From: Enterobacteria phage SfV
Sequence record: NC_003444
DNA: 37,074 nt
Strand: one strand, 5' to 3'
Numbering within the stretch: position 1 is the first letter of the stretch; each line of letters starts with the position of its first letter. A model generated the notes under the pieces. That model did not search any database and had not been told where the DNA came from. It worked only from the letters and a program-made list of their open reading frames with translations. Shown here in pieces: positions 7,357-21,815 of this stretch. The position numbers and the translations under genes were made by a program.

Positions 7357-7527
7357 ATGTTTGTGAAACCTGTTAAAGGGCGGTCAGTGCCTGACCCTGC
7401 CCGCGGTGACCTTTTGCCCGCCGAAGGGCGAAATGTTGACGAGAACAACTACTGGCTGCGCCGTGAAGCAGCGGGTGATATCCGGCGCGTTAATAAAAAG
7501 GTGAACACCGATGACGATAAGCTTTAA
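7357..7527 (+). CDS. small conserved protein preceding tail sheath (DUF2635-like)
   Basis: 56-codon ORF MFVKPVKGRSVPDPARGDLLPAEGRNVDENNYWLRREAAGDIRRVNKKVNTDDDKL; overlaps sheath start by 17 nt; not in the ORF track (<60 aa). Confidence 0.5.
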   Translation: MFVKPVKGRSVPDPARGDLLPAEGRNVDENNYWLRREAAGDIRRVNKKVNTDDDKL

Positions 7528-9007
7528 CACCATTCCGTCGAATACGCTGGTTCCGCTGTTTTATGCGGAAATGGATAACCAGGCGGCGAATACTGCACAG
7601 GACAGCGGGGCATCGTTGCTGATTGGTCACGCCAATAACGGTGCAGAGATTGTTGCCAACAGTCTGGTGTTGATGCCGTCGGCAGACTATGCACGCCAGA
7701 TTTGTGGTGCGGGAAGTCAGCTGGCGCGTATGGTCGAGGCTTATCGCCAGACCGACCCGTTTGGTGAGCTGTATGTGATTGCCGTTCCGGAAGCCACAGG
7801 CGCGGCGGCAACGGTTACGCTGACGGTGACCGGGGAAGCAACCGAAAGCGGCACGGTGAATGTCTATGTGGGACGTACCCGCGTGCAGGCTCCGGTGACC
7901 AACGGCGATAACGTCACGACGATTGCCAGCAGTATCCAGGATGCCATCAATGCCGTTCCGACTCTGCCGTTTACAGCTTCATCTTCGGCTGGTGTTGTCA
8001 CGCTGACCGCGCGTCATAAGGGGCTTTGCGGGAATGAAATTCCTGTCAGCCTCAATTACTACGGCTTCGGTGGGGGCGAAGTGCTGCCAGCGGGCGTACA
8101 GATTGCCGTGGCGACGGGGACCGCCGGAACGGGCGCTCCGGTTCTCACCGGCGCGGTGGCTGCAATGGCGGATGAGCCGTTTGATTATATCGGTCTGCCG
8201 TTCAACGACACGGCCTCCGTTAACACGCTGGTGACCGAGATGAACGATACCAGCGGTCGCTGGAGCTATGCGCGTCAGCTGTATGGTCATGTGTATACGG
8301 CAAAGACCGGCACACTGTCAGAACTGGTGAACGCAGGTGACCAGTTTAACCAGCAGCACATCACCCTGGCGGGGTACGAAAAAGAGACCCAGACGCCTGC
8401 CGACGAGCTGGCGGCAAGCCGTACCGCCCGTGCAGCGGTGTTTATCCGCAACGATCCGGCACGTCCCACGCAGACCGGTGAGCTGGTGGGTATGCTGCCT
8501 GCGCCGAAGGGGAAACGGTTCACGATGACCGAGCAGCAGACCCTGCTGTCTCATGGCGTGGCAACGGCGTATGTCGAAAGCGGGGTGCTGCGCATTCAGC
8601 GTGATGTCACCACGTACAGGAAAAATGCTTACGGGGTTGCGGATAACAGCTACCTCGACAGCGAGACGCTGCATACCAGTGCGTATGTACTGCGCAAACT
8701 GAAATCCGTCATTACCAGTAAGTACGGGCGTCACAAGCTTGCCAGCGACGGTACCCGCTTTGGTCCCGGTCAGGCGATTGTCACCCCGGCGGTAATCAAA
8801 GGGGAACTGCTGGCAACCTACCGTCAGCTTGAGCGTGCGGGGATCGTGGAAAACTACGAACTGTTTAAGCAGTACCTGGTTGTGGAGCGTGATGCCAGCG
8901 TTCCGAACCGCCTGAACACGCTGTTCCCGCCTGACTATGTTAACCAGTTGCGTGTTTTTGCCGTGGTTAACCAGTTCCGTCTTCAGTATTCAGAGGAGTC
9001 TGCATAA
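7511..9007 (+). CDS. contractile tail sheath protein (Mu gpL-like)
   Basis: 498 aa; N-terminus MTISFNTIPSNTLVPLFYAEMDN typical of Mu-type sheath proteins; followed by tube gene. Confidence 0.85.
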   Translation: MTISFNTIPSNTLVPLFYAEMDNQAANTAQDSGASLLIGHANNGAEIVANSLVLMPSADYARQICGAGSQLARMVEAYRQTDPFGELYVIAVPEATGAAATVTLTVTGEATESGTVNVYVGRTRVQAPVTNGDNVTTIASSIQDAINAVPTLPFTASSSAGVVTLTARHKGLCGNEIPVSLNYYGFGGGEVLPAGVQIAVATGTAGTGAPVLTGAVAAMADEPFDYIGLPFNDTASVNTLVTEMNDTSGRWSYARQLYGHVYTAKTGTLSELVNAGDQFNQQHITLAGYEKETQTPADELAASRTARAAVFIRNDPARPTQTGELVGMLPAPKGKRFTMTEQQTLLSHGVATAYVESGVLRIQRDVTTYRKNAYGVADNSYLDSETLHTSAYVLRKLKSVITSKYGRHKLASDGTRFGPGQAIVTPAVIKGELLATYRQLERAGIVENYELFKQYLVVERDASVPNRLNTLFPPDYVNQLRVFAVVNQFRLQYSEESA

Positions 9008-9363
9008 TGGCCCGTATCGGGGGAACCTGTTATTTCAAAATTGACGGTCAGCAGCTATCGCTGACCGGCGGCATTGAGGTGCCCATGAACAGGACGGTCA
9101 ATGATGACATCATCGGCCTGGACGGTTCAGTGGACCGCAAGGAAACTCACCGTGCGCCTTATGTCAAAGGGACCTTCAAGGTGCCGAAGAATTTTCCGGT
9201 GAGCAAAATCACCTCGTCTGATGAGATGACCATCACTGCCGAGCTGGCGAACGGTCAGGTCTATGTATTGTCGTCAGCCTGGCTGCACGGCGAAGCGAAC
9301 CATAATGCCGAAGAAGGTACGGTTGATCTTGAGTTCCACGGTGAAGAAGGGGATTACCAGTAA
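9007..9363 (+). CDS. tail tube protein (Mu gpM-like)
   Basis: 118 aa, start overlaps sheath stop (TAATG); position. Confidence 0.8.
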   Translation: MARIGGTCYFKIDGQQLSLTGGIEVPMNRTVNDDIIGLDGSVDRKETHRAPYVKGTFKVPKNFPVSKITSSDEMTITAELANGQVYVLSSAWLHGEANHNAEEGTVDLEFHGEEGDYQ

Positions 9364-9632
9364 TGAAAGAGCTTGAGTTAAAGAAACCGATTACTGCTCA
9401 TGGCGAGACACTCTCCGTACTGGAGTTTGATGAACCCAGCGGGAAGGATGTCCGCGAGCTGGGGTATCCCTACCAGATGAATCAGGATGAGTCAGTCAGA
9501 CTTCTGGCGCATGTGGTGTCGAAATACATTGTGCGGCTGGCGAAAGTGCCGCAAAGCTCTGTCGACCAGATGTCTCCGGCAGACCTGAATGCAGCGGCGT
9601 GGCTTGTGGCTGGTTTTTTCCTCCAGGCCTGA
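9363..9632 (+). CDS. tail assembly chaperone (short form)
   Basis: 89-aa ORF between tube and tape-measure genes; contains slippery site near its 3' end. Confidence 0.7.
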   Translation: MKELELKKPITAHGETLSVLEFDEPSGKDVRELGYPYQMNQDESVRLLAHVVSKYIVRLAKVPQSSVDQMSPADLNAAAWLVAGFFLQA

Positions 9633-9781
9633 CGGCTGAATACCTCACTGATCGCTTCTTTGACTGCGCCAGCTACTGGCGCATTAATCCTTTCGAATTG
9701 CTGAATATGCCGATCAGTGAAATTCCCTTACTGGTCAGTCAGGCAAACAGGATAGAGCAGGAGAAACGCACACATGGCTGA
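9363..9781 (+). CDS. tail assembly chaperone, -1 frameshift fusion product (slip at T_TTT_TTC 9614-9620)
   Basis: Heptamer T TTT TTC in the 0 frame at 9614-9620; the -1 frame continues open through ORF 9599..9781, which ends inside the tape-measure start region. Confidence 0.5.
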
Positions 9782-11609
9782 ATTTGAGCTTAAGGCGTTG
9801 ATCACCGGTGTCGACAGGCTTTCTCCCGCGCTGTCGAAAATGCAAAAGAAAATCCGGGGATTTAAACGCCAGGCGGAAGAAGCGTCACAGGGTGGGCTGG
9901 CGCTTGGTGGCGGACTGGCAGCGGGGCTGACGCTTTCCCTGAAATCTTATGCCGATCAGGAAAACGCCGCCACCGGGCTGAAAGTCGCCATGATGGATGC
10001 GAACGGCGAGGTTGGAAAGAGCTTTCAGGACATCAATAAACTGGCTATTGGCCTGGGTAACCAGCTACCCGGTACAACGGCTGATTTCCAGAACATGATG
10101 CAGATGCTGGTGCGTCAGGGGATCCCGGCAGAAAACATTCTGGGTGGTGTGGGTAAAGCGACAGCTTATCTTGCGGTACAACTGAAAAAAACACCGGAAG
10201 CGGCTGCCGAGTTTGCCGCAAAGATGCAGGATGCTACCGGAACGGCGTCAGAAGACATGATGGGGCTGTTCGACACTATCCAGAAGGCGTTTTATCTGGG
10301 CGTTGACGATACCAACATGTTGTCCTTCTTCACTAAAACCAGTTCTGTTCTGAAGATGGTGAACAAGGACGGTCTTCAGGCTGCACAGAGCCTTGCCCCC
10401 ATCAGCGTCATGATGGATCAGATGGGGATGAACGGGGAGTCGGCAGGTAATGCCCTGCGAAAAGTTATCCAGTCCGGATTAAGTGTTAAGAAAATCAGGG
10501 ACGTCAATAAAGTCATGGCCCGCCAGAAACTCGGAGTACAGCTCGATTTTACTGACGGCAAAGGAAGTTTTGGCGGTCTTGATAACATGTTCAGGCAACT
10601 GGCAAAGCTGCGAAAACTGACCGACGTTAAGCGAACCGGTGTACTTAAGGCAATATTTGGTGATGATGCCGAAACCCTTCAGGTGGTCAATGCGCTGATC
10701 GATAAAGGAAAGGATGGCTACGATCAGATCCAGCAGAAGATGAATAAACAGGCCAGCCTGAATAAACGTGTTCAGGCACAGCTTGGTACGCTGTCCAACC
10801 TGTGGGAGGCAATGACAGGGACCGCAACTAACGGCCTTGCGGCTATTGGCGGCGCATTTTCTGGTGACGCTAAAAATATCACACAATGGCTGGGGGAGTT
10901 GGGGGAGAAATTCACGAAGTTTGCGGATGAAAATCCCCGGGTTATTCGCGGCGTCGTCGGGCTTGCTGCCGGTCTTGCGATTCTGAAACTGGGATTGATG
11001 GGCGTTGGCGGTGCCATCAGTATTGTCAGCAGGATCATGTCGATGACGCCGATTGGCATGATTGCGACGGCGATAGCCCTGGCTGCGGGATTAATTATCA
11101 CTAACTGGGATGTTGTCGGACCTTATTTTAAGAAACTCTGGGAAACCATTGGTCCTTATTTTGAGGCTGGCTGGGAACTCCTTAAGAAAGTTTTTGCCTG
11201 GTCGCCGCTGGGGATGGTGATCAATAATTGGGGGCCGGTTGTTAAGTGGTTTCAGGATATGTGGGACAAGCTGAAGCCAATTATTGAGTGGTTTACCGAC
11301 AGTTCCGGTGACACGGTCGATGCCATTAACTCTGCGCAGTGGGGCGCGGGTGCTTATGATGCTTATGGGACGGGAATACCGGCGCGGGGATACACACCTT
11401 ATCCGGCGGTAGATCCGGCTCAGTCAAACAATGCCTCCGGTGCCACAGGCCCGAATCCCTTCATGATTAACAAAGCTTCTGCGCCAAAAGTTGATGGTGA
11501 GATCAAGGTATCTTTTGTGAATTCGCCTCCGGGTATGCGGGTTATGGAAACGCGATCCAGCGGTTTTGATGTCAGCCATGATGTTGGCTATACGCGCTTT
11601 GGCAGGTAA
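9774..11609 (+). CDS. tail tape measure protein
   Basis: 611 aa; Gly/Ala-rich hydrophobic segments; follows the chaperone pair. Confidence 0.85.
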   Translation: MAEFELKALITGVDRLSPALSKMQKKIRGFKRQAEEASQGGLALGGGLAAGLTLSLKSYADQENAATGLKVAMMDANGEVGKSFQDINKLAIGLGNQLPGTTADFQNMMQMLVRQGIPAENILGGVGKATAYLAVQLKKTPEAAAEFAAKMQDATGTASEDMMGLFDTIQKAFYLGVDDTNMLSFFTKTSSVLKMVNKDGLQAAQSLAPISVMMDQMGMNGESAGNALRKVIQSGLSVKKIRDVNKVMARQKLGVQLDFTDGKGSFGGLDNMFRQLAKLRKLTDVKRTGVLKAIFGDDAETLQVVNALIDKGKDGYDQIQQKMNKQASLNKRVQAQLGTLSNLWEAMTGTATNGLAAIGGAFSGDAKNITQWLGELGEKFTKFADENPRVIRGVVGLAAGLAILKLGLMGVGGAISIVSRIMSMTPIGMIATAIALAAGLIITNWDVVGPYFKKLWETIGPYFEAGWELLKKVFAWSPLGMVINNWGPVVKWFQDMWDKLKPIIEWFTDSSGDTVDAINSAQWGAGAYDAYGTGIPARGYTPYPAVDPAQSNNASGATGPNPFMINKASAPKVDGEIKVSFVNSPPGMRVMETRSSGFDVSHDVGYTRFGR

Positions 11610-11669
11610 TGAAAAATTAGTTTGTTAATTAGTCCCACTCCGGTGGGATTTTTTATGCACGGAGTTTAT

Positions 11670-12998
11670 ATGACGTGGAAAGACAGGCTTCAGGACGCGT
11701 CATTTCGCGGTGTACCGTTTAAGGTCGAAGAAGAAAGTGCGGGAACAGGTCGCCGTGTGGAAACGCACGAATACCCGAACCGCGACAAACCCTATACCGA
11801 AGATCTGGGAAAAGTCACTTTCCGCCCGTCCATCACGGCTTATGTGGTGGGAGATGACTGCTTTGACCAGCGCGATCGCCTGATTGACGCGCTGAATAAA
11901 CCCGGTCCCGGCACGCTTGTCCATCCGACATACGGTGAGCTGAAAGTCTGTGTTGACGGGGAAGTTCGGGTCAGCACATCGAAAAGTGAAGGACGTATTG
12001 TCCGCTTTGACCTGAAGTTTGTCGAAGCAGGAGAGCTCTCTTACCCCACATCAGGTGCGGCGACGGCGCAGACGCTGATGTCATCCTGTTCTGCACTGGA
12101 TGACTGCATCAGTGACAGCTTCAGCGGTTTCAGTATCGATGGCGTGGCGGATTTTGTGCAGAACGACGTCGTTGGTAATGTCAGCACAATGCTTGGGTAT
12201 GTTTCTGATGCGATGAAAGTGGTGGATTCTGCCGTATCGGATGCGGCCAGGCTGTTGCAGGGGGATATCTCGGTACTTCTGCCGCCACCATCGTCAGGCA
12301 AAAATTTCGTTGAGCAGGTGCAGAAAATGTGGCGTACCGGGAAACGCCTTTATGGTAACGCCAGCGACCTGGTCACCATGATCAAAACGCTTTCCGGTGT
12401 CAGCCTCGGCAGCGATCTGCAACCGCGCGGCGTCTGGAAAACGGACAGTAAAACCACCGCCACGGCGACGCAGCAGCGTAACGTGGTTGCCAGCACCCTT
12501 CGTACGACCGCAATCAGCGAAGCGGCGTATGCCGTCACCCGATTGCCTGCGCCAACAACTTCCGCGGTGATGCAGAATTCCGCAGTGGGGCAGGCAACAA
12601 CACCTGCGCAGAGCACTGGCTGGCCTTCCGTCACGCATCCGGCACTGAACAATGCACCGGCGGTGAAAAACACGGTTGACCTGCCAACGTGGGAAGAACT
12701 GACTGACATTCGCGACACACTGAATACGGCAATTGATAAGGAGTTGTCCCGTACAACCAGTGATGCGCTGTTTCTGGCGCTGCGCCGGGTGAAAGCAGAT
12801 CTGAATGCGGATATCAACACGCGCCTTGAACAGTCTGCACGGATCATTCAGCGCACACCGGATGAGGTTTTACCCGCGCTGGTGCTGGCGGCGACCTGGT
12901 TTGATAACGCGGCGCGTGACGCGGACATTATCCGGCGTAATGCCATTACGCATCCCGGCTTTGTGCCGGTGATCCCTCTGAAGGTGCCAGTGCAATGA
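11670..12998 (+). CDS. DNA circularisation protein (Mu gpN-like)
   Basis: ORF 11622..12998; ATG 11670 after GGAG; N-terminus MTWKDRLQDASFRGVPF characteristic of the Mu N family. Confidence 0.8.
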   Translation: MTWKDRLQDASFRGVPFKVEEESAGTGRRVETHEYPNRDKPYTEDLGKVTFRPSITAYVVGDDCFDQRDRLIDALNKPGPGTLVHPTYGELKVCVDGEVRVSTSKSEGRIVRFDLKFVEAGELSYPTSGAATAQTLMSSCSALDDCISDSFSGFSIDGVADFVQNDVVGNVSTMLGYVSDAMKVVDSAVSDAARLLQGDISVLLPPPSSGKNFVEQVQKMWRTGKRLYGNASDLVTMIKTLSGVSLGSDLQPRGVWKTDSKTTATATQQRNVVASTLRTTAISEAAYAVTRLPAPTTSAVMQNSAVGQATTPAQSTGWPSVTHPALNNAPAVKNTVDLPTWEELTDIRDTLNTAIDKELSRTTSDALFLALRRVKADLNADINTRLEQSARIIQRTPDEVLPALVLAATWFDNAARDADIIRRNAITHPGFVPVIPLKVPVQ

Positions 12999-14074
12999 AC
13001 GACAATGTCACGCTACGGGTAAATGGCCGGGAGTGGAATGGCTGGACATCGGTGCGCATCGGTGCCGGTATTGAACGACTGGCGCGGGATTTCAGTGTGG
13101 ATATCACCCGCCAGTGGCCGGGAGATGAGGGTATTACCACGCTTCAGCCGCGCATTAAAAACGGTTCAAAAGTGGAAGTGCTGATTGGTGATGAGCTGGT
13201 GATCACCGGCTGGGTGGAGGCGACGCCCGTTCGTTACGATGCCCGTTCGGTCAGCACCGGTATTGCCGGACGTAGTCTGACGGCTGACCTGATTGACTGT
13301 GCAGCCGAACCGACACAGTTTAACGGACGATCGCTGGTACAGATTGCGCAGGCGCTTGCTGCGCCTTTCGGCATTGAGGTGGTGAACAACGGTGCGCCGT
13401 CGGGTGTTATTCCTGACGTCCAGCCCGATCACGGTGAAACGGTGATTGAGGTAATCAACAAAATACTCGGTCAGCAGCAGGCACTGGCTTACGACGACCC
13501 ACACGGCAGGCTGGTGATTGGTGGTATTGGCTCAACGCGGGCACATACTGCGCTGGTACTCGGGGAAAACATCCTTTCCTGCGATACGGAGAAGAGTATC
13601 CGGGAGCGTTTTTCTGTTTACCAGGTGGCGGGGCAGCGTGCCGGAAACGACGATGATTTCGGTGAGGCCACCACCACCGCGCTGCGGGCCCGCACAGAGG
13701 ACGCATTTATTGCCCGTTACCGTCCGATGTATATCAGGCAGACAGGGCAGGCTACGGGGGCAGGCTGTATTGCGCGTGCTGACTTTGAAGCCCGACAACG
13801 GGCGGCGCGGACGGATGAAACCACCTATGTGGTGCAGGGCTGGCGACAGGGTAACGGTACGCTGTGGCAGCCCAACCAGCGGGTGATTGTCTTTGATCCG
13901 GTCTGTGGTTTCGACAATACCGAACTGCTTGTTTCGGAAGTCACGTTTACTCAGGACCAGAACGGCACCCTGACGGAAATCCGTGTCGGCCCGCCTGATG
14001 CTTATCTGCCTGAACCCGAAGCCCCCGGCGCGCGGAAAAAGAAAAAAGCCAGAGTACAGGAGGACCCGTTCTGA
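12995..14074 (+). CDS. baseplate hub protein (Mu gpP / gp44-like)
   Basis: 359 aa; ATGA coupling; position in Mu-type baseplate module. Confidence 0.8.
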   Translation: MNDNVTLRVNGREWNGWTSVRIGAGIERLARDFSVDITRQWPGDEGITTLQPRIKNGSKVEVLIGDELVITGWVEATPVRYDARSVSTGIAGRSLTADLIDCAAEPTQFNGRSLVQIAQALAAPFGIEVVNNGAPSGVIPDVQPDHGETVIEVINKILGQQQALAYDDPHGRLVIGGIGSTRAHTALVLGENILSCDTEKSIRERFSVYQVAGQRAGNDDDFGEATTTALRARTEDAFIARYRPMYIRQTGQATGAGCIARADFEARQRAARTDETTYVVQGWRQGNGTLWQPNQRVIVFDPVCGFDNTELLVSEVTFTQDQNGTLTEIRVGPPDAYLPEPEAPGARKKKKARVQEDPF

Positions 14075-17784: not shown

Positions 17785-17807
17785 TCCCCCCCTAAGTTTC
17801 GGGGGGG
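17785..17807. terminator. G/C hairpin between convergent tail-fibre and gtr operons (possible bidirectional terminator)
   Basis: C7 (17785-17791), 8-nt loop, G8 (17800-17807), in the 124-nt gap between convergent genes. Confidence 0.35.
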
Positions 17808-17857
17808 GTATTGATGCAAAACTTAGCTCAATAGCATTAAGTAACTACCATTCAACA

Positions 17858-19111
17858 TTAAGGCTGTTTTTTTATTAATGTCATCGTCCATCCTGCAGGG
17901 TTGAACTTGAAAGAATACGATTCTCCTGGTGCTAAACTTTCAAATTTTTTAACTTGCTCTTTCCACCCGTAATCTGGGAGTGGGGTAAGATTGAAAAAAT
18001 ATAAACATGAGATTAACGATGTTGTATATAATATCCATGGTAGGAATTTAAAGTCCAACTGGGAAATATGGTTTAAGAAGTAAACCAATACAGAGTACCA
18101 TATAATTGTTGGTATGACAGAATATCTTCCCCCGCCATGAATTAATAATGGCCATTGCTCACTTGTAGAAGAAAGCATTGGTTTTGCTAGTGAAAACGTT
18201 AATGTTAGTATTGCGAAAACTATTGCCGAGCGCATGGGGTAATTGGAAACAATAAATGTAAAAATAGTGATGGAAAGACAAATCATTGTAATTGCAATGC
18301 AAATTGAATCATGATTCCATAAAGGTGGCAAAAAGTCACCATTAGCCCATAAACCCAGAAAAACCTTTGTTGTTAATATTTTGCAAAGTGTTGCGAAATT
18401 AGCTCCAAGAACCATATCAACTCTGGTCTCAGAGGATGTCATGATAATAGAAATAAATTGAATCAAACAAATAGCAATGAAAACGTATTCGTGAGTGGTG
18501 ATTTTTTTTGTAGATAAGCGTTTTTGTATAAGTATATTTATCCCTACCATTGGAGCCATGAACACTATAAATGGGCCACTTAGTCCACATATGATTATCG
18601 CTATATAATCGTGTGCTTTTTGATAATTATTTGTAGGCTTTGGAGCTAACATAACAAGAAGTAAATATAGTGATAAATACCAATGATCATTAGTAACATT
18701 GGCGTGCACTTCTGATACTTCCGGCATTGTTATAATAAACAAAGCAGTAAATATTCTTGGTGTTATGTTTACGTAACTAAATCTTCCAGAGAGTATGAAA
18801 GATACAAGCAATGCCCTAACAATAATTGCGGAGATGTTAAAAATTAAAGGGGCATACATTAAATTAAAATTTAATGATATGGAGGCAATAAGTTTTGATA
18901 TGGTTTGATAATATCCATTTTGAGGGAATATCATTGATGTGAATATCCCATTATTGTATGCCATAGCATACCATACATGAGCATCTTCTGCCCAAAACTG
19001 CGGTGCTCTGATTATATCAGGACGGCGCAAATACATCAAAATAACTGCAATGAAAAATACACCAATTAAGAAAAATAGTTTTTTTACATATGATGTTTTA
19101 AGGCTTTTCAT
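17858..19111 (-). CDS. gtrC: serotype-specific O-antigen glucosyltransferase GtrC (type-specific Gtr; matches my memory of 417-aa GtrV)
   Basis: 417-aa polytopic membrane protein directly downstream of gtrB; third gene of a gtrA-gtrB-gtr(type) cassette. Confidence 0.75.
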
Positions 19112-20031
19112 TTTTGTTTCTCATTTTTGATGATGTATTTTGGGCGATGTTTGCTTTCAATATAGATTCTGCCTATATATTCACCGAGAACACCAATCCC
19201 GATCAGTTGCACTCCACCCAAGAAAAGTATTGATACAAGCAGGGAGGGATACCCGCGTACTGGGTTACCAAAGACAAGGGTGTCTATAATCATCCATGCA
19301 CCATATAAAAATGAAATGCTTGCAACAAACAAACCTATATAAGTCCATACGCGAAGAGGAAAGGTTGAAAAACTTGTGATACCTTCCAGTGCCAGATTCC
19401 ATAATTTCCAGCCATTAAATTTTGAGATGCCAGCAACGCGCTCTGCGCGTACATATTCAACGACATCTGTCTGACCACCCACCCAGCTCAGTATGCCTTT
19501 CATGAAAAGATTGCGCTCAGGCAACAGTTTAATGTTCTCCACAACCTCACGAGACATGAGTCGAAAATCTCCGACATTTTCCTCGATCTTTGGGGTGCTT
19601 ATTTTGTTGTGTAACTTATAGAACCACTCAGCTGTCTTACGTTTCAGTCGTCCATCAGTTGAGCGGTCTGAACGTTTAGCAAGCACCATGTCAGCACCTG
19701 CCTGCCACTTTTCAATAAGATGAGGGATGACCTCAATAGGATCTTGCAGGTCGACATCAATAGGAATTACAGCATCGCCGCTTGCATGGTCTAACCCTGC
19801 AAATAAGGCTGGTTCTTTACCAAAGTTGCGTGTAAATGACAGCGGAACAACTAGTGGGTCTGAAACAGCCAGCGCGTTAATAATTGACTCTGTGGCATCT
19901 TTACTTCCGTCATTTATGAATACAATTTCTACTTCATATGGCTTCAACTCTTGGAATTCACGTACCGTTTTATAGAAAACAGGTATCGCTTCTTCTTCAT
20001 TGAAGACAGGAACGACAAGAGATATTTTCAT
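19108..20031 (-). CDS. gtrB: bactoprenol glucosyltransferase GtrB (GT2 family)
   Basis: 307 aa; N-terminal GT2 signature ([15 protein letters not shown]...INDGSKD) plus C-terminal transmembrane helices. Confidence 0.9.
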
Positions 20032-20390
20032 TTCGCATCCCTAAAGACAATGAACTTTGAATAGACGAAACCGCACACCAGACTGATGGCGGAGAAGGTG
20101 ATAAGAGTGACTATTGGAGGAAGTGAGCATTTATCAGCTGCCCAACCAACAATCACACTCAATATTCCCATAAATCCCACGTATAACATGTAGCGCATCG
20201 CTGTAGTCGATGCTTTGAATGTGAATCTTGCATTCGCGAAGAAGCTAAAGCTCACAGCCACTACGAAACCTGTGAAGTTTGCCAGAGCCTGACTGGTATG
20301 TGCGGCATAGATACATACACCAAAAACCACCCAGTGTATAAGTGTGTTCAGCACACCTATAGATGTGTACTTTACAAATAACTTTAACAT
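20028..20390 (-). CDS. gtrA: GtrA flippase-like membrane protein
   Basis: 120 aa, four predicted TM segments, ATGA-coupled upstream of gtrB. Confidence 0.85.
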
Positions 20391-20591
20391 TTATTTAATC
20401 AATGAGCTCTGAAAGGCATGAAGTCTATCATCCAAGTCTCAATTGGTCGATACTTGCTATGTCTGATGAGACAAAACTGAGACACATAAGGCCTCACAAT
20501 GGCTTGCAAGGCTTTACATGTTTTGATGTGGTGGGACGTGTGAGCCCAGTGTTGATGGGATAATCCTTTGAATTACAAGCGGATTCTTATA

Positions 20592-20637
20592 ATTCGTAAT
20601 GCGAAGGTCGTAGGTTCGACTCCTATTATCGGCACCA
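20592..20637 (+). other. attP core: 3' 46 nt of a tRNA-Thr(CGU) gene (thrW-like), not an intact tRNA
   Basis: Sequence attcgtaatgcgaaggtcgtaggttcgactcctattatcggcacca = anticodon loop (CGT), variable/T arm (GGTTCGACTCC) and acceptor 3' end with CCA; upstream sequence diverges from tRNA; lies immediately next to the integrase gene. Confidence 0.8.
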
Positions 20638-20651
20638 TTTAAATCAATAAG

Positions 20652-21815
20652 TTACACATCATTAGTACCTTCCTTATTTTTTGACTGGGACGAATTTGGG
20701 ACCGATGGGTTCAGGATCGAGTCTATTTGCCGTGCGTGTTCGGTAAGGTGATTAGGTGCAAGGTGAGCATATCGACGAACCATTTCGATAGACTCCCAGC
20801 CTCCCATTTCCTGTAACACTGACAACGGGACTCCGGCTTGACCCAGCCAACTTGCCCAGGTGTGTCTCAAGTCGTGAAATCTGAAATCATCAATACCAGC
20901 CCGTCTCAGCGCCGCTTTCCAGGCTGTGTTTGCGTCATACCGCATCTCCCTTACTGTTGGCGCTTTCGTTCCGTCTGGTTTGGTACAGCTTTCCTTGTAC
21001 ACAAATACCCAACGGTGATGATTCCCGATTTGTTTTTTCAAAACGCGACATGCAGTATCATTCAGCGCAACGCCAATTGCGCGGTTTGATTTACTCTCTT
21101 CCGGGTTTATCCATGCCACCCGGCGCTGCATGTCTATTTGTTGCCATTCAAGGTTGATGATGTTCGAGCGTCTTAAGCCTGTTGCCAGTGCAAATTCAAC
21201 AACAGACTTTAATGGCTCCGGACATTCATCAATCAGCCTTTGTGCTTCATGGGGCTCCAGCCAGCGGATCCGTTTATTCTTTGGTTGAGGCACTTTAATA
21301 ATTGGTGCCTTATCCAGCATTTTCCATTCACGCTCTGCGGCTCTTAGTAGGGCCTTTATAAATGAAAGATGCGTAGCCTTCGTTGCAACGGACGCTGGTT
21401 TTGGCGTGTATTCTGGAACAGGTTTCCCTTTTTTCCTGCATGCTTCTGCCCTGAGTCTCCAGTTTTCCTCATGACGCCGGTTCGTCATTTTCTGGATTGC
21501 TGAATAAATTTTTGATTCAGTAATGTCTCTTAGTTGCATTCCTGCGAAATGTTGAAGCCAGAATCCGATCCGGCTTTTGTCATCGTCCAGTGATTTTTGA
21601 TGTGCTTTCTCTTCAAGCCACCTGACACACGCTTCCTCGAACGTTATATCAGGTATTTCACCAAGTTTGCTGACCCGCCATGCTTCAGCCTTTAGCTTGT
21701 CATGGAGTTCTGTCGCCTGCCTTTTGTCCTTTGTTCCAAGAGACTGTTTAAATCTTTTACCGTTCGGCAATGTGAAACTGGCGTACCATATTTCACCTCT
21801 GCGGAAGAGTGACAT
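20652..21815 (-). CDS. int: tyrosine integrase (site-specific recombinase)
   Basis: 387 aa; C-terminal catalytic region [10 protein letters not shown]...RRYAHL with the tyrosine; SD AGAGGAAA upstream; adjacent to attP. Confidence 0.9.

What the first reader, a model, noticed from the sequence alone, without database searches (positions are those of the whole stretch)
9363..9781. Programmed -1 ribosomal frameshift site in the tail assembly chaperone gene
The 0-frame chaperone ORF (9363..9632) contains the canonical slippery heptamer T TTT TTC at 9614-9620, four codons before its stop, and the -1 frame stays open from there to 9781, ending in the tape-measure start region. This is the conserved two-product chaperone arrangement (as in lambda G/GT) placed where expected between tube and tape measure.
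Basis: partly seen in the sequence, partly recalled or inferred. Interest (0 to 1): 0.45.

Follow-up and report, generated by a model that had tools for sequence, protein, structure and literature searches.

The report
Tail chaperone programmed -1 frameshift site
This is an ordinary but unannotated case of a well-known phage trick: a few ribosomes slip back one base on a run of T's near the end of the tail-assembly chaperone gene and make a longer second protein, as in phage P2 and lambda.

Summary
The 89-aa chaperone ORF (9363-9632, Pfam Phage_TAC_7) carries an in-phase T TTT TTC at 9614-9620. The -1 frame then stays open to TGA 9779-9781, overlapping the tape-measure ATG (9774) by 8 nt. The predicted fusion is 139 aa.

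The window is an SfI/SfII-type serotype-converting myophage with a Mu-like tail.

Evidence that the site is real:
- The stretch 9620-9778 evolves as coding sequence only in the -1 frame (dN/dS 0.02-0.13, against about 1 or more in the other frames).
- An in-phase T TTT TTN sits at the same position in 15 diverged relatives, down to 33% identity, and in P2. The preceding codon always ends in T, although its amino acid varies.
- Most relatives have no start codon in the -1 frame ahead of the conserved extension.
- Of 48 in-phase heptamers in the window's genes, only this one gives a long extension past the stop.

Site, product sizes and stop/start overlap match the proven P2 E/E+E' case. They do not match Mu, where the +1/-2 frame is the open one.

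I found no conserved stimulatory RNA structure or upstream Shine-Dalgarno-like sequence. None of the public records I inspected annotates the slippage. Verdict: a new member of a known kind, of low interest except as an annotation fix.

The parts
9007..9363 (+). Tail tube gene (118 aa), immediately upstream. Its TAA overlaps the chaperone ATG by 1 nt.
   Evidence: Pfam PF10618 Tail_tube, E=2.4e-33. ORF.
9363..9632 (+). 0-frame tail assembly chaperone ORF (89 aa), the short and presumably major product.
   Evidence: PF10109 Phage_TAC_7, 58.1 bits against a cut-off of 25. phrog_166 'tail protein'. PGAP names it 'phage tail assembly protein'.
9614..9620 (+). Slippery heptamer T TTT TTC (codons GGT TTT TTC, residues G84 F85 F86), the proposed site of tandem -1 tRNA-Phe slippage.
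   Evidence: Read. Conserved in phase in 15 relatives and in P2. The synonymous-site constraint gives a joint chance of about 1e-11 over 11 lineages.
9620..9781 (+). -1 frame extension of 53 codons plus TGA 9779-9781 (PPGLTAEYLTDRFFDCASYWRINPFELLNMPISEIPLLVSQANRIEQEKRTHG). It is translated only after the slip.
   Evidence: dN/dS is 0.02-0.13 in this frame and about 0.75 or higher in the others. The first 29 codons have pN/pS 0.22, similar to the chaperone body at 0.18. The motif [YF]W[RK][IVL][ND]P is conserved in relatives. Most relatives have no start codon.
9363..9781 (+). Predicted fusion product, join(9363..9620, 9620..9781), 139 aa.
   Evidence: Built. tblastn with the fusion finds both parts, in two frames, in 21 phage records at 80% or more coverage. 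Fusion length is 138-140 aa in the 12 loci.
9774..11609 (+). Tape measure protein gene (611 aa). Its ATG overlaps the stop of the extension (ATGGCTGA).
   Evidence: PF10145 PhageMin_Tail, E=1e-26. P2 has the same 8-nt overlap geometry, ATGAGTAA.
9759..9763 (+). AGGAG, the likely Shine-Dalgarno sequence of the tape-measure gene, 10 nt before its ATG and inside the extension coding sequence.
   Evidence: Read. This is inference only.

Best explanation
The chaperone gene makes two proteins from one start codon.

Most ribosomes read 9363-9632 and release the 89-aa chaperone. A minority slip back one base when tRNA-Phe molecules occupy TTT (P site) and TTC (A site) of T TTT TTC at 9614-9620; both re-pair with TTT in the -1 frame. 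These ribosomes continue with CCT CCA GGC... to TGA 9779-9781 and produce a 139-aa protein. It has the same 86 N-terminal residues plus a 53-residue C-terminal domain.

The function is inferred by analogy with lambda gpG/gpGT and P2 gpE/gpE+E'. The shared N-terminal domain would coat the tape-measure protein (9774-11609). The frameshift-only domain would recruit the tube protein (9007-9363). Tube and sheath would then polymerise to the measured length, and both chaperone forms would leave before the virion is complete.

Shown here:
- the site itself;
- coding-type selection in the -1 frame;
- the lack of an independent start;
- conservation of the site.

Inferred:
- that the slip is ribosomal;
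- its efficiency;
- the binding partners.
For: - Sequence geometry is as described.
- The chaperone is a PF10109 member, and its neighbours form a Mu-type tail module.
- Purifying selection acts in the -1 frame only.
- The heptamer T TTT TTC/T/G sits in phase at the homologous position in enterobacterial relatives, the ST64B/SfIV/phiP27 group (about 40% identity), Burkholderia BgVeeders33, Pseudomonas DVM-2008 and PG1, Bordetella PBb002 and P2.
- The preceding codon always ends in T (GGT, AAT, CGT, AGT, CCT, GAT), while the Ala codon before GGT varies freely among the enterobacterial relatives (GCT, GCG, GCA, GCC).
- In the ST64B group the 0-frame runs 24 codons past the heptamer, so the site is tied to the T run and not to the stop.
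- In several relatives the -1 frame opens only 21 nt before the heptamer (9 nt in P2). The shift must therefore happen in a short interval that holds no other slippery motif.
- The extension is almost never called as a gene: 10 proteins in 5.8 billion.
- In RefSeq, P2 E+E' is annotated as a -1 frameshift at GGT TTT TTG, giving 91 and 142 aa.
- Literature on function and ratios: PMC5009743 and PMC3091744.
Against: - No protein data exist for this phage group, and none of the public records inspected annotates the slippage.
- In E. coli reporter assays U_UUU_UUC without a stimulator gave only 0.12% frameshifting, against a background of 0.055% (PMC4066793 supplement and section 17).
- I found no conserved downstream structure or upstream Shine-Dalgarno-like sequence. 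The efficiency may therefore be low, or it may depend on something not recognised here.
- Three of 80 near-identical viral contigs carry GGG instead of GGT before the T run.
- The Phe-Phe pair is also conserved for protein reasons. It is kept as TTC TTC in Paraburkholderia phage IPK and at the end of both copies of tandem chaperones.
Confidence: 0.88

Rival explanations
1. The downstream ORF (9599-9781, 60 aa from GTG) is an independent small gene with its own initiation, as a few records annotate it.
For: A GTG lies at 9599 in the -1 frame. The ORF is annotated as 'hypothetical protein' in vB_EcoM-689R6 and in one PGAP record. It matches phrog_32181.
Against: No Shine-Dalgarno-like sequence precedes the GTG, and the GTG is absent from most relatives. 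Atlantibacter, Scandinavium, Citrobacter, F1055 and SfIV have no ATG/GTG/TTG in that frame until +87 to +150. [quoted passage not shown] The first 29 codons after the heptamer are under selection as strong as in the chaperone body. Gene callers almost never call this ORF.
Confidence: 0.03
2. The long product arises from transcriptional slippage: RNA polymerase adds one U in the T6 run, and normal translation of the edited mRNA gives the fusion.
For: Homopolymeric T/A runs can cause RNA polymerase slippage. UUUUUUU is under-represented in all three frames in E. coli genes, possibly for that reason (PMC4066793). Some relatives have T7. Variant L025 keeps six T's shifted by one position.
Against: By my own recollection, efficient polymerase slippage in E. 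coli generally needs runs of about 8-9 or more. The homologous P2 site and the analogous lambda site are described as ribosomal frameshifts. The run is always placed so that both P- and A-site tRNAs can re-pair. None of this excludes a minor contribution.
Confidence: 0.07
3. The open -1 frame and the heptamer are coincidental, and the 142-nt gap before the tape-measure gene is untranslated spacer.
For: In-phase heptamers are common: 48 in the window's genes. Most records leave the gap unannotated.
Against: dN/dS is 0.02-0.13 in the -1 frame, and variable sites are biased to the third codon position (27/16/41 at positions 1/2/3). The protein motif is conserved down to about 40% identity.
Confidence: 0.01

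Closest known systems
Phage P2 gpE / gpE+E' (programmed -1 frameshift at T TTT TTG; Christie et al. 2002, cited in PMC3091744; annotated in NC_001895)
   Same: - Same Pfam family for the N-terminal part (PF10109).
- Same nucleotide context, GGT TTT TTN.
- Same position: residues 84-86 of an 89- or 91-aa ORF.
- Similar product sizes: 89/139 aa here, 91/142 aa in P2.
- Same 8-nt overlap between the extension stop and the tape-measure ATG.
- No downstream hairpin is reported for P2-type sites.
   Different: - Only 21% identity overall (BLASTP E=0.37).
- The extension does not match Pfam PF06528 (P2 GpE), and the profile comparison is weak (E=0.01).
- The Z base is C, not G.
- The surrounding tail genes are Mu-type, not P2-type.
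Phage lambda gpG / gpGT (-1 frameshift at G GGA AAG)
   Same: The arrangement between the major tail and tape-measure genes is the same. Two products share an N-terminus. The long form is the minor one (30:1 in lambda), and neither is in the virion. This is the functional model used here (PMC5009743).
   Different: Lambda is a siphovirus with a different slippery sequence. I detected no sequence similarity to lambda's proteins. The partner of the extension would be a myophage tube protein rather than gpV.
Phage Mu gp41 (tail assembly chaperone, -2 frameshift)
   Same: The neighbouring genes are homologous: Mu L, M, gp42, gp43, P (gp44), gp45, gp46, gp47 and gp48 types. The chaperone sits at the same place.
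   Different: - Mu gp41 is 144 aa and belongs to PF23746, with only a sub-threshold PF10109 score.
- It has no in-phase heptamer.
- Its open downstream frame is +1/-2 after CGG GGG CGA.
- The literature describes it as a -2 shift.
- In the window the +1/-2 frame closes after 2 codons.

Membership tests
Conserved tail-assembly-chaperone frameshift of long-tailed dsDNA phages (Xu, Hendrix & Duda 2004 arrangement) | The gene pair lies between the major tail/tube gene and the tape-measure gene. | tested here: met
   Tube 9007-9363, chaperone 9363-9632, tape measure 9774-11609.
Conserved tail-assembly-chaperone frameshift of long-tailed dsDNA phages (Xu, Hendrix & Duda 2004 arrangement) | The downstream ORF overlaps the end of the first in another frame and has no start signal of its own. 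| tested here: met
   The -1 frame is open 9491-9781. Relatives have no conserved start codon or Shine-Dalgarno sequence.
Conserved tail-assembly-chaperone frameshift of long-tailed dsDNA phages (Xu, Hendrix & Duda 2004 arrangement) | A slippery sequence lies in the overlap and is conserved among relatives. | tested here: met
   T TTT TTC at 9614-9620. It is conserved in 15 relatives and P2, with a synonymous-site constraint.
Conserved tail-assembly-chaperone frameshift of long-tailed dsDNA phages (Xu, Hendrix & Duda 2004 arrangement) | The downstream frame encodes a protein under selection. | tested here: met
   dN/dS is 0.02-0.13 in the -1 frame only.
Conserved tail-assembly-chaperone frameshift of long-tailed dsDNA phages (Xu, Hendrix & Duda 2004 arrangement) | Two proteins with a common N-terminus are made in a fixed ratio. 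Both are needed for tail assembly and both are absent from virions. | not testable with these tools
   This needs protein detection and genetics. I found no experimental paper on this phage group.
Pfam PF10109 Phage_TAC_7 (P2 gpE / Mu gp41 / '14' chaperones) | HMM score above the gathering threshold. | tested here: met
   58.1 bits against a cut-off of 25, covering residues 4-86. The best match among predicted viral structures is 'tape measure chaperone' of Burkholderia phage Mica, E=6e-5, but the model has a mean pLDDT of only 68.
Pfam PF06528 Phage_P2_GpE (the E' extension of P2) | HMM match of the frameshift-encoded extension. | tested here: not met
   No hit at E up to 10. In alignment A3 only P2 itself matches. 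hhalign gives E=0.01 with probability 4%. A Bordetella relative gives a sub-threshold hit, E=0.064. Homology is possible but not shown.
Mu gp41-type chaperone (PF23746) with -2 frameshift | PF23746 match and an open +1/-2 frame reaching the tape-measure gene. | tested here: not met
   Only PF10109 matches the window protein. The +1 frame closes 2 codons after the stop.

The most novel reading that the evidence does not exclude
Frameshifting here, and in the whole P2-E-type chaperone family, may depend on a stimulator that has not been recognised. U_UUU_UUC and U_UUU_UUG alone give only about 0.12% in E. coli reporters, whereas P2-type sites are reported to shift at two to three times lambda's few per cent. 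No conserved RNA structure or Shine-Dalgarno-like element is present. A conserved nascent-peptide or local-context effect, for example the hydrophobic ...W-L-V-A-G-F-F end of the chaperone, could be the missing signal.
Probability: 0.15. Interest if true: 0.45.

Novelty: new member of a known kind. Interest (0 to 1): 0.2.

Why it matters
The main value is annotation. This prophage locus occurs in 1063 of 5426 complete E. coli genomes and in the Shigella serotype-converting phages SfI and SfII. Relatives such as SfIV, ST64B and phiP27 carry a homologous chaperone cassette with the same slip site.

In every record inspected the 139-aa product is missing. The 142-nt stretch is either left blank or called a stand-alone 'hypothetical protein'.

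The locus also shows that a Mu-type tail module can carry a P2-type chaperone and frameshift cassette. Mu itself uses a different family member and a different frame. This is a small example of modular exchange within contractile-tail gene clusters.

It does not change what is known about the mechanism.

Tried and rejected
- **Downstream stimulatory structure.** Folding 9621-9740 shows no hairpin at the usual 5-9 nt spacing. An 8-bp hairpin at 9664-9684 lies 44 nt downstream, too far to act as a stimulator. RNAalifold on 13 relatives gives essentially no consensus structure, -2.5 kcal/mol. Rfam has no match.
- **Upstream Shine-Dalgarno-like stimulator.** Pairing to the anti-SD is weak and inconsistent across relatives.
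- **Homology of the extension to P2 E'.** Pfam finds nothing and hhalign is weak. I left this open rather than claiming it.
- **Solved structures.** There is no relative by sequence or by fold. The AlphaFold model is only moderate and is poor for the extension.
- **Widening the sample.** Profile-based locus searches failed because the alignments were too divergent. A distant single query found nothing. The first viral scan returned only 99%-identical loci.
- **Fused proteins in the database.** P0001-P0006 turned out to be indel-ridden assemblies and are not evidence.
- **Literature.** Searches for an experimental or explicit description of the frameshift in SfV/SfI/SfII/ST64B-type phages found none. 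Xu et al. 2004 and Christie et al. 2002 are not held, so I could not check whether SfV is in their tables.

Full report
**What the window is.** The 1.2 kb around the finding is 98.7-99.2% identical to Escherichia phage vB_EcoM-689R6 and Shigella phages SfI and SfII. The locus is present in 1063 of 5426 complete E. coli genomes.

The gene order is:
- sheath, 7511-9007;
- tube, 9007-9363;
- a small ORF, 9363-9632;
- tape measure, 9774-11609;
- DNA-circulation protein, 11622-12998;
- gpP/gp44-type hub, 12995-14074;
- gp45, gp46, baseplate J and gp48 homologues further on.

This is a Mu-type contractile tail module. On the other strand, gtrA, gtrB, a type-specific gtr-like ORF and an integrase (17858-21815) mark the element as a serotype-converting temperate phage or prophage.

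**Checking the observation.** The ORF 9363-9632 encodes 89 aa and ends GCT GGT TTT TTC CTC CAG GCC TGA. T TTT TTC therefore occupies 9614-9620 in the X XXY YYZ phase. After a -1 slip the reading continues CCT CCA GGC CTG ACG... for 53 codons to TGA 9779-9781. That stop overlaps the tape-measure ATG at 9774 (ATGGCTGA). The +1 frame closes after two codons. The fusion would be 139 aa.

A heptamer alone means little. There are 167 such strings on the + strand and 48 in-phase ones in 45 genes. But the one at 9614 is the only one of the 48 whose -1 continuation runs far past the 0-frame stop: 49 codons, against 11 for the next best.

**Is the downstream frame really translated?** I compared the window with eleven enterobacterial relatives whose chaperones are 75-99% identical (Buttiauxella, Citrobacter, Atlantibacter, Scandinavium, Kluyvera, Edwardsiella, Pantoea).
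- In 9620-9778, variable sites fall 27/16/41 on codon positions 1/2/3 of the -1 frame.
- Pairwise dN/dS in that frame is 0.02-0.13 for the closer pairs and up to 0.47 for the most distant.
- The other two frames give about 0.75 to 4.8.
- The first 29 codons after the heptamer have pN/pS 0.22, similar to the chaperone body at 0.18.

tblastn with the 139-aa fusion finds both halves, in two frames, in 21 phage records at 80% or more coverage. These include ST64B, SfIV and phiP27 (39-43% identity); Burkholderia phage BgVeeders33 also matches in two pieces. The fusion length is 138-140 aa in the 12 loci. The extension shares the motif [YF]W[RK][IVL][ND]P...E.

**How is it reached?** In most relatives the -1 frame contains no ATG, GTG or TTG between its upstream stop and positions +87 to +150 after the heptamer. 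[quoted passage not shown] The window's GTG at 9599 has no Shine-Dalgarno sequence and is not conserved. The extension is almost invisible to gene callers: 10 proteins in a database of 5.8 billion, against hundreds of entries for the chaperone.

In several relatives the -1 frame opens only 21 nt before the heptamer, and only 9 nt before it in P2. Entry into the frame must therefore occur in a short interval, and its only slippery motif is the T run. In the ST64B/SfIV/phiP27 group the 0-frame continues 24 codons beyond the heptamer. The heptamer nevertheless sits at the same aligned position, so the site is tied to the T run and not to the stop codon.

**Conservation of the site itself.** The codon context is:
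- GGT TTT TTC in the enterobacterial group;
- AAT or CGT TTT TTT in the ST64B/SfIV/phiP27 group;
- GGT TTT TTC in Burkholderia BgVeeders33;
- AGT TTT TTC in Pseudomonas DVM-2008;
- CCT TTT TTG in Pseudomonas PG1;
- GAT TTT TTG in Bordetella PBb002;
- GGT TTT TTG in P2.

The amino acid before Phe varies, but its codon always ends in T. Among the enterobacterial relatives the Ala codon before GGT uses all four third bases. From local codon usage, the chance of NNT-TTT at that position is 0.03-0.19 per lineage, or about 1e-11 jointly for eleven lineages. That is a rough figure, because the lineages are related and the codon sample is crude.

This matters because the Phe-Phe pair is also conserved at the protein level. 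It is nearly invariant in a 45-member family alignment. It is kept as TTC TTC in Paraburkholderia phage IPK. It also ends both copies of tandem-duplicated chaperones. Amino-acid conservation alone would therefore not have been evidence for the slip site.

There are exceptions. Three of 80 near-identical viral contigs read GGG TTT TTC or GGG TTT TTT CTC. IPK has no T run at all. It keeps the conserved -1 extension, whose frame opens only three codons before the stop (GAG GGC GCG TAA), so it must use another site.

**Stimulators.** I found none.
- Folding the downstream RNA shows no hairpin at the usual 5-9 nt spacing. An 8-bp hairpin at 9664-9684 lies 44 nt away.
- A 13-sequence consensus fold is essentially unstructured.
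- Pairing of the upstream 24 nt to the anti-Shine-Dalgarno sequence is weak and inconsistent.
- Rfam has no match.

P2-type sites are likewise reported to lack a hairpin (PMC3091744).

One point remains open. In E. coli reporters U_UUU_UUC without a stimulator gave 0.12%, U_UUU_UUG 0.118% and U_UUU_UUU 0.33%, against a background of 0.055%. U_UUU_UUC rose to 7.6% with a strong pseudoknot (PMC4066793 supplement and section 17). P2-type frameshifting, by contrast, is said to be two to three times more efficient than lambda's, where the ratio is 30:1 (PMC5009743). The efficiency here cannot be computed.

**Comparison with known systems.** The closest is P2 gpE/gpE+E', annotated in RefSeq as a -1 frameshift. 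The two share:
- the Pfam family of the N-terminal part;
- the same GGT TTT TTN context at residues 84-86;
- product sizes of 91/142 aa against 89/139 aa;
- the same 8-nt overlap between extension stop and tape-measure start.

Overall identity is only 21%. The extension does not match Pfam PF06528. A profile comparison gives a weak collinear match (E=0.01), and a Bordetella relative gives a sub-threshold PF06528 hit. Homology of the two extensions is therefore plausible but not shown.

Mu itself, whose tail genes otherwise match the window's, differs. Its gp41 is 144 aa and belongs to PF23746. It has no in-phase heptamer, and the frame open downstream of it is +1/-2 after CGG GGG CGA. That agrees with the published -2 shift. 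So a Mu-type tail module here carries a P2-E-type chaperone cassette.

Lambda gpG/gpGT supplies the functional model. The shared domain binds the tape-measure protein, the frameshift-only domain binds the tube subunit, and both leave the finished tail. For this phage those roles are inferred and not tested.

**Structure.** An AlphaFold model of the fusion has a mean pLDDT of 68. The N-domain scores 65-91 and consists of a beta-hairpin plus helices. The extension scores 46-61 and is helical. There is no PDB relative by sequence or fold. Among predicted viral structures the best match is a 137-aa 'tape measure chaperone' of Burkholderia phage Mica (E=6e-5), followed by other tail assembly chaperones.

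**Annotation status.** None of the records inspected joins the two frames. These are SfI, SfII, SfIV, ST64B, phiP27, F1055, AH07, EPP-1, BgVeeders33, vB_EcoM-689R6 and two PGAP E. coli genomes. The stretch is blank or is called a 60-aa hypothetical protein. I found no paper describing the frameshift in this phage group. I could not read Xu et al. 2004 or Christie et al. 2002 to see whether SfV is tabulated there.

**Verdict.** This is a new, unannotated member of a well-known kind. Its closest relative is the P2 E/E+E' site, and it differs from Mu's shift site. Interest is low apart from the annotation fix and the open question of what sets the efficiency.

Noticed in passing
window 9664-9684: There is a perfect 8-bp hairpin, TGCGCCAG-CTA-CTGGCGCA, inside the extension coding sequence, 44 nt after the heptamer. 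In the enterobacterial relatives the stem bases, including synonymous third positions of TGC, GCC and CGC, are invariant while the loop varies. It is absent in the ST64B/SfIV/phiP27 group. It lies too far downstream to be a classical frameshift stimulator, and its role is unknown.
   Followed up: partly
L108 (Paraburkholderia phage IPK, PV588664.1) 589-1100: This relative has GGC TTC TTC, so no T heptamer, at the homologous Phe-Phe. It still has a conserved -1 extension (…DLAHFWNVSP…). That frame opens only three codons before the stop (GAG GGC GCG TAA), so a different slip site must be used. The record is marked UNVERIFIED.
   Followed up: partly
L056, L062, L025 (IMG/VR contigs), position equivalent to window 9612-9623: Three natural variants break the canonical heptamer. 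Two read GGG TTT TTC and one reads GGG TTT TTT CTC. They could be less efficient sites, decaying prophages or sequencing errors.
   Followed up: partly
proteins P0130, P0135, P0146, P0175: Some family members are tandem duplications of the chaperone domain (174-221 aa), and in most of them each copy ends in a GFF-like motif. This shows that the Phe-Phe pair has a protein-level role besides encoding the slip site.
   Followed up: partly
L104 (Burkholderia BgVeeders33) and L109 (Pseudomonas DVM-2008), 7-9 nt after their heptamers: These relatives from GC-rich hosts have GC-rich hairpins at the classical spacing after T TTT TTC (-12 and -15 kcal/mol within 40 nt), unlike the window. I did not test this against the structure expected by chance in GC-rich sequence.
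   Followed up: no
window 17858-21815, minus strand: This region carries gtrA (PF04138), gtrB (PF00535), a 417-aa ORF with no Pfam match in the position of the type-specific glucosyltransferase, and a tyrosine integrase. Together they form the O-antigen serotype-conversion cassette of SfI/SfII-type phages.
   Followed up: partly
proteins P0001-P0006: Public metagenome and Logan assemblies contain 'fused' 107-139-aa versions of this chaperone. They are created by indel errors around homopolymers and could be mistaken for natural fusions.
   Followed up: yes
window 17786-17808: A C7 run is followed by a G8 run between the tail-fibre assembly gene and the gtr cassette. It may be a terminator-like stem or an attachment-region feature. 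I did not examine it.
   Followed up: no
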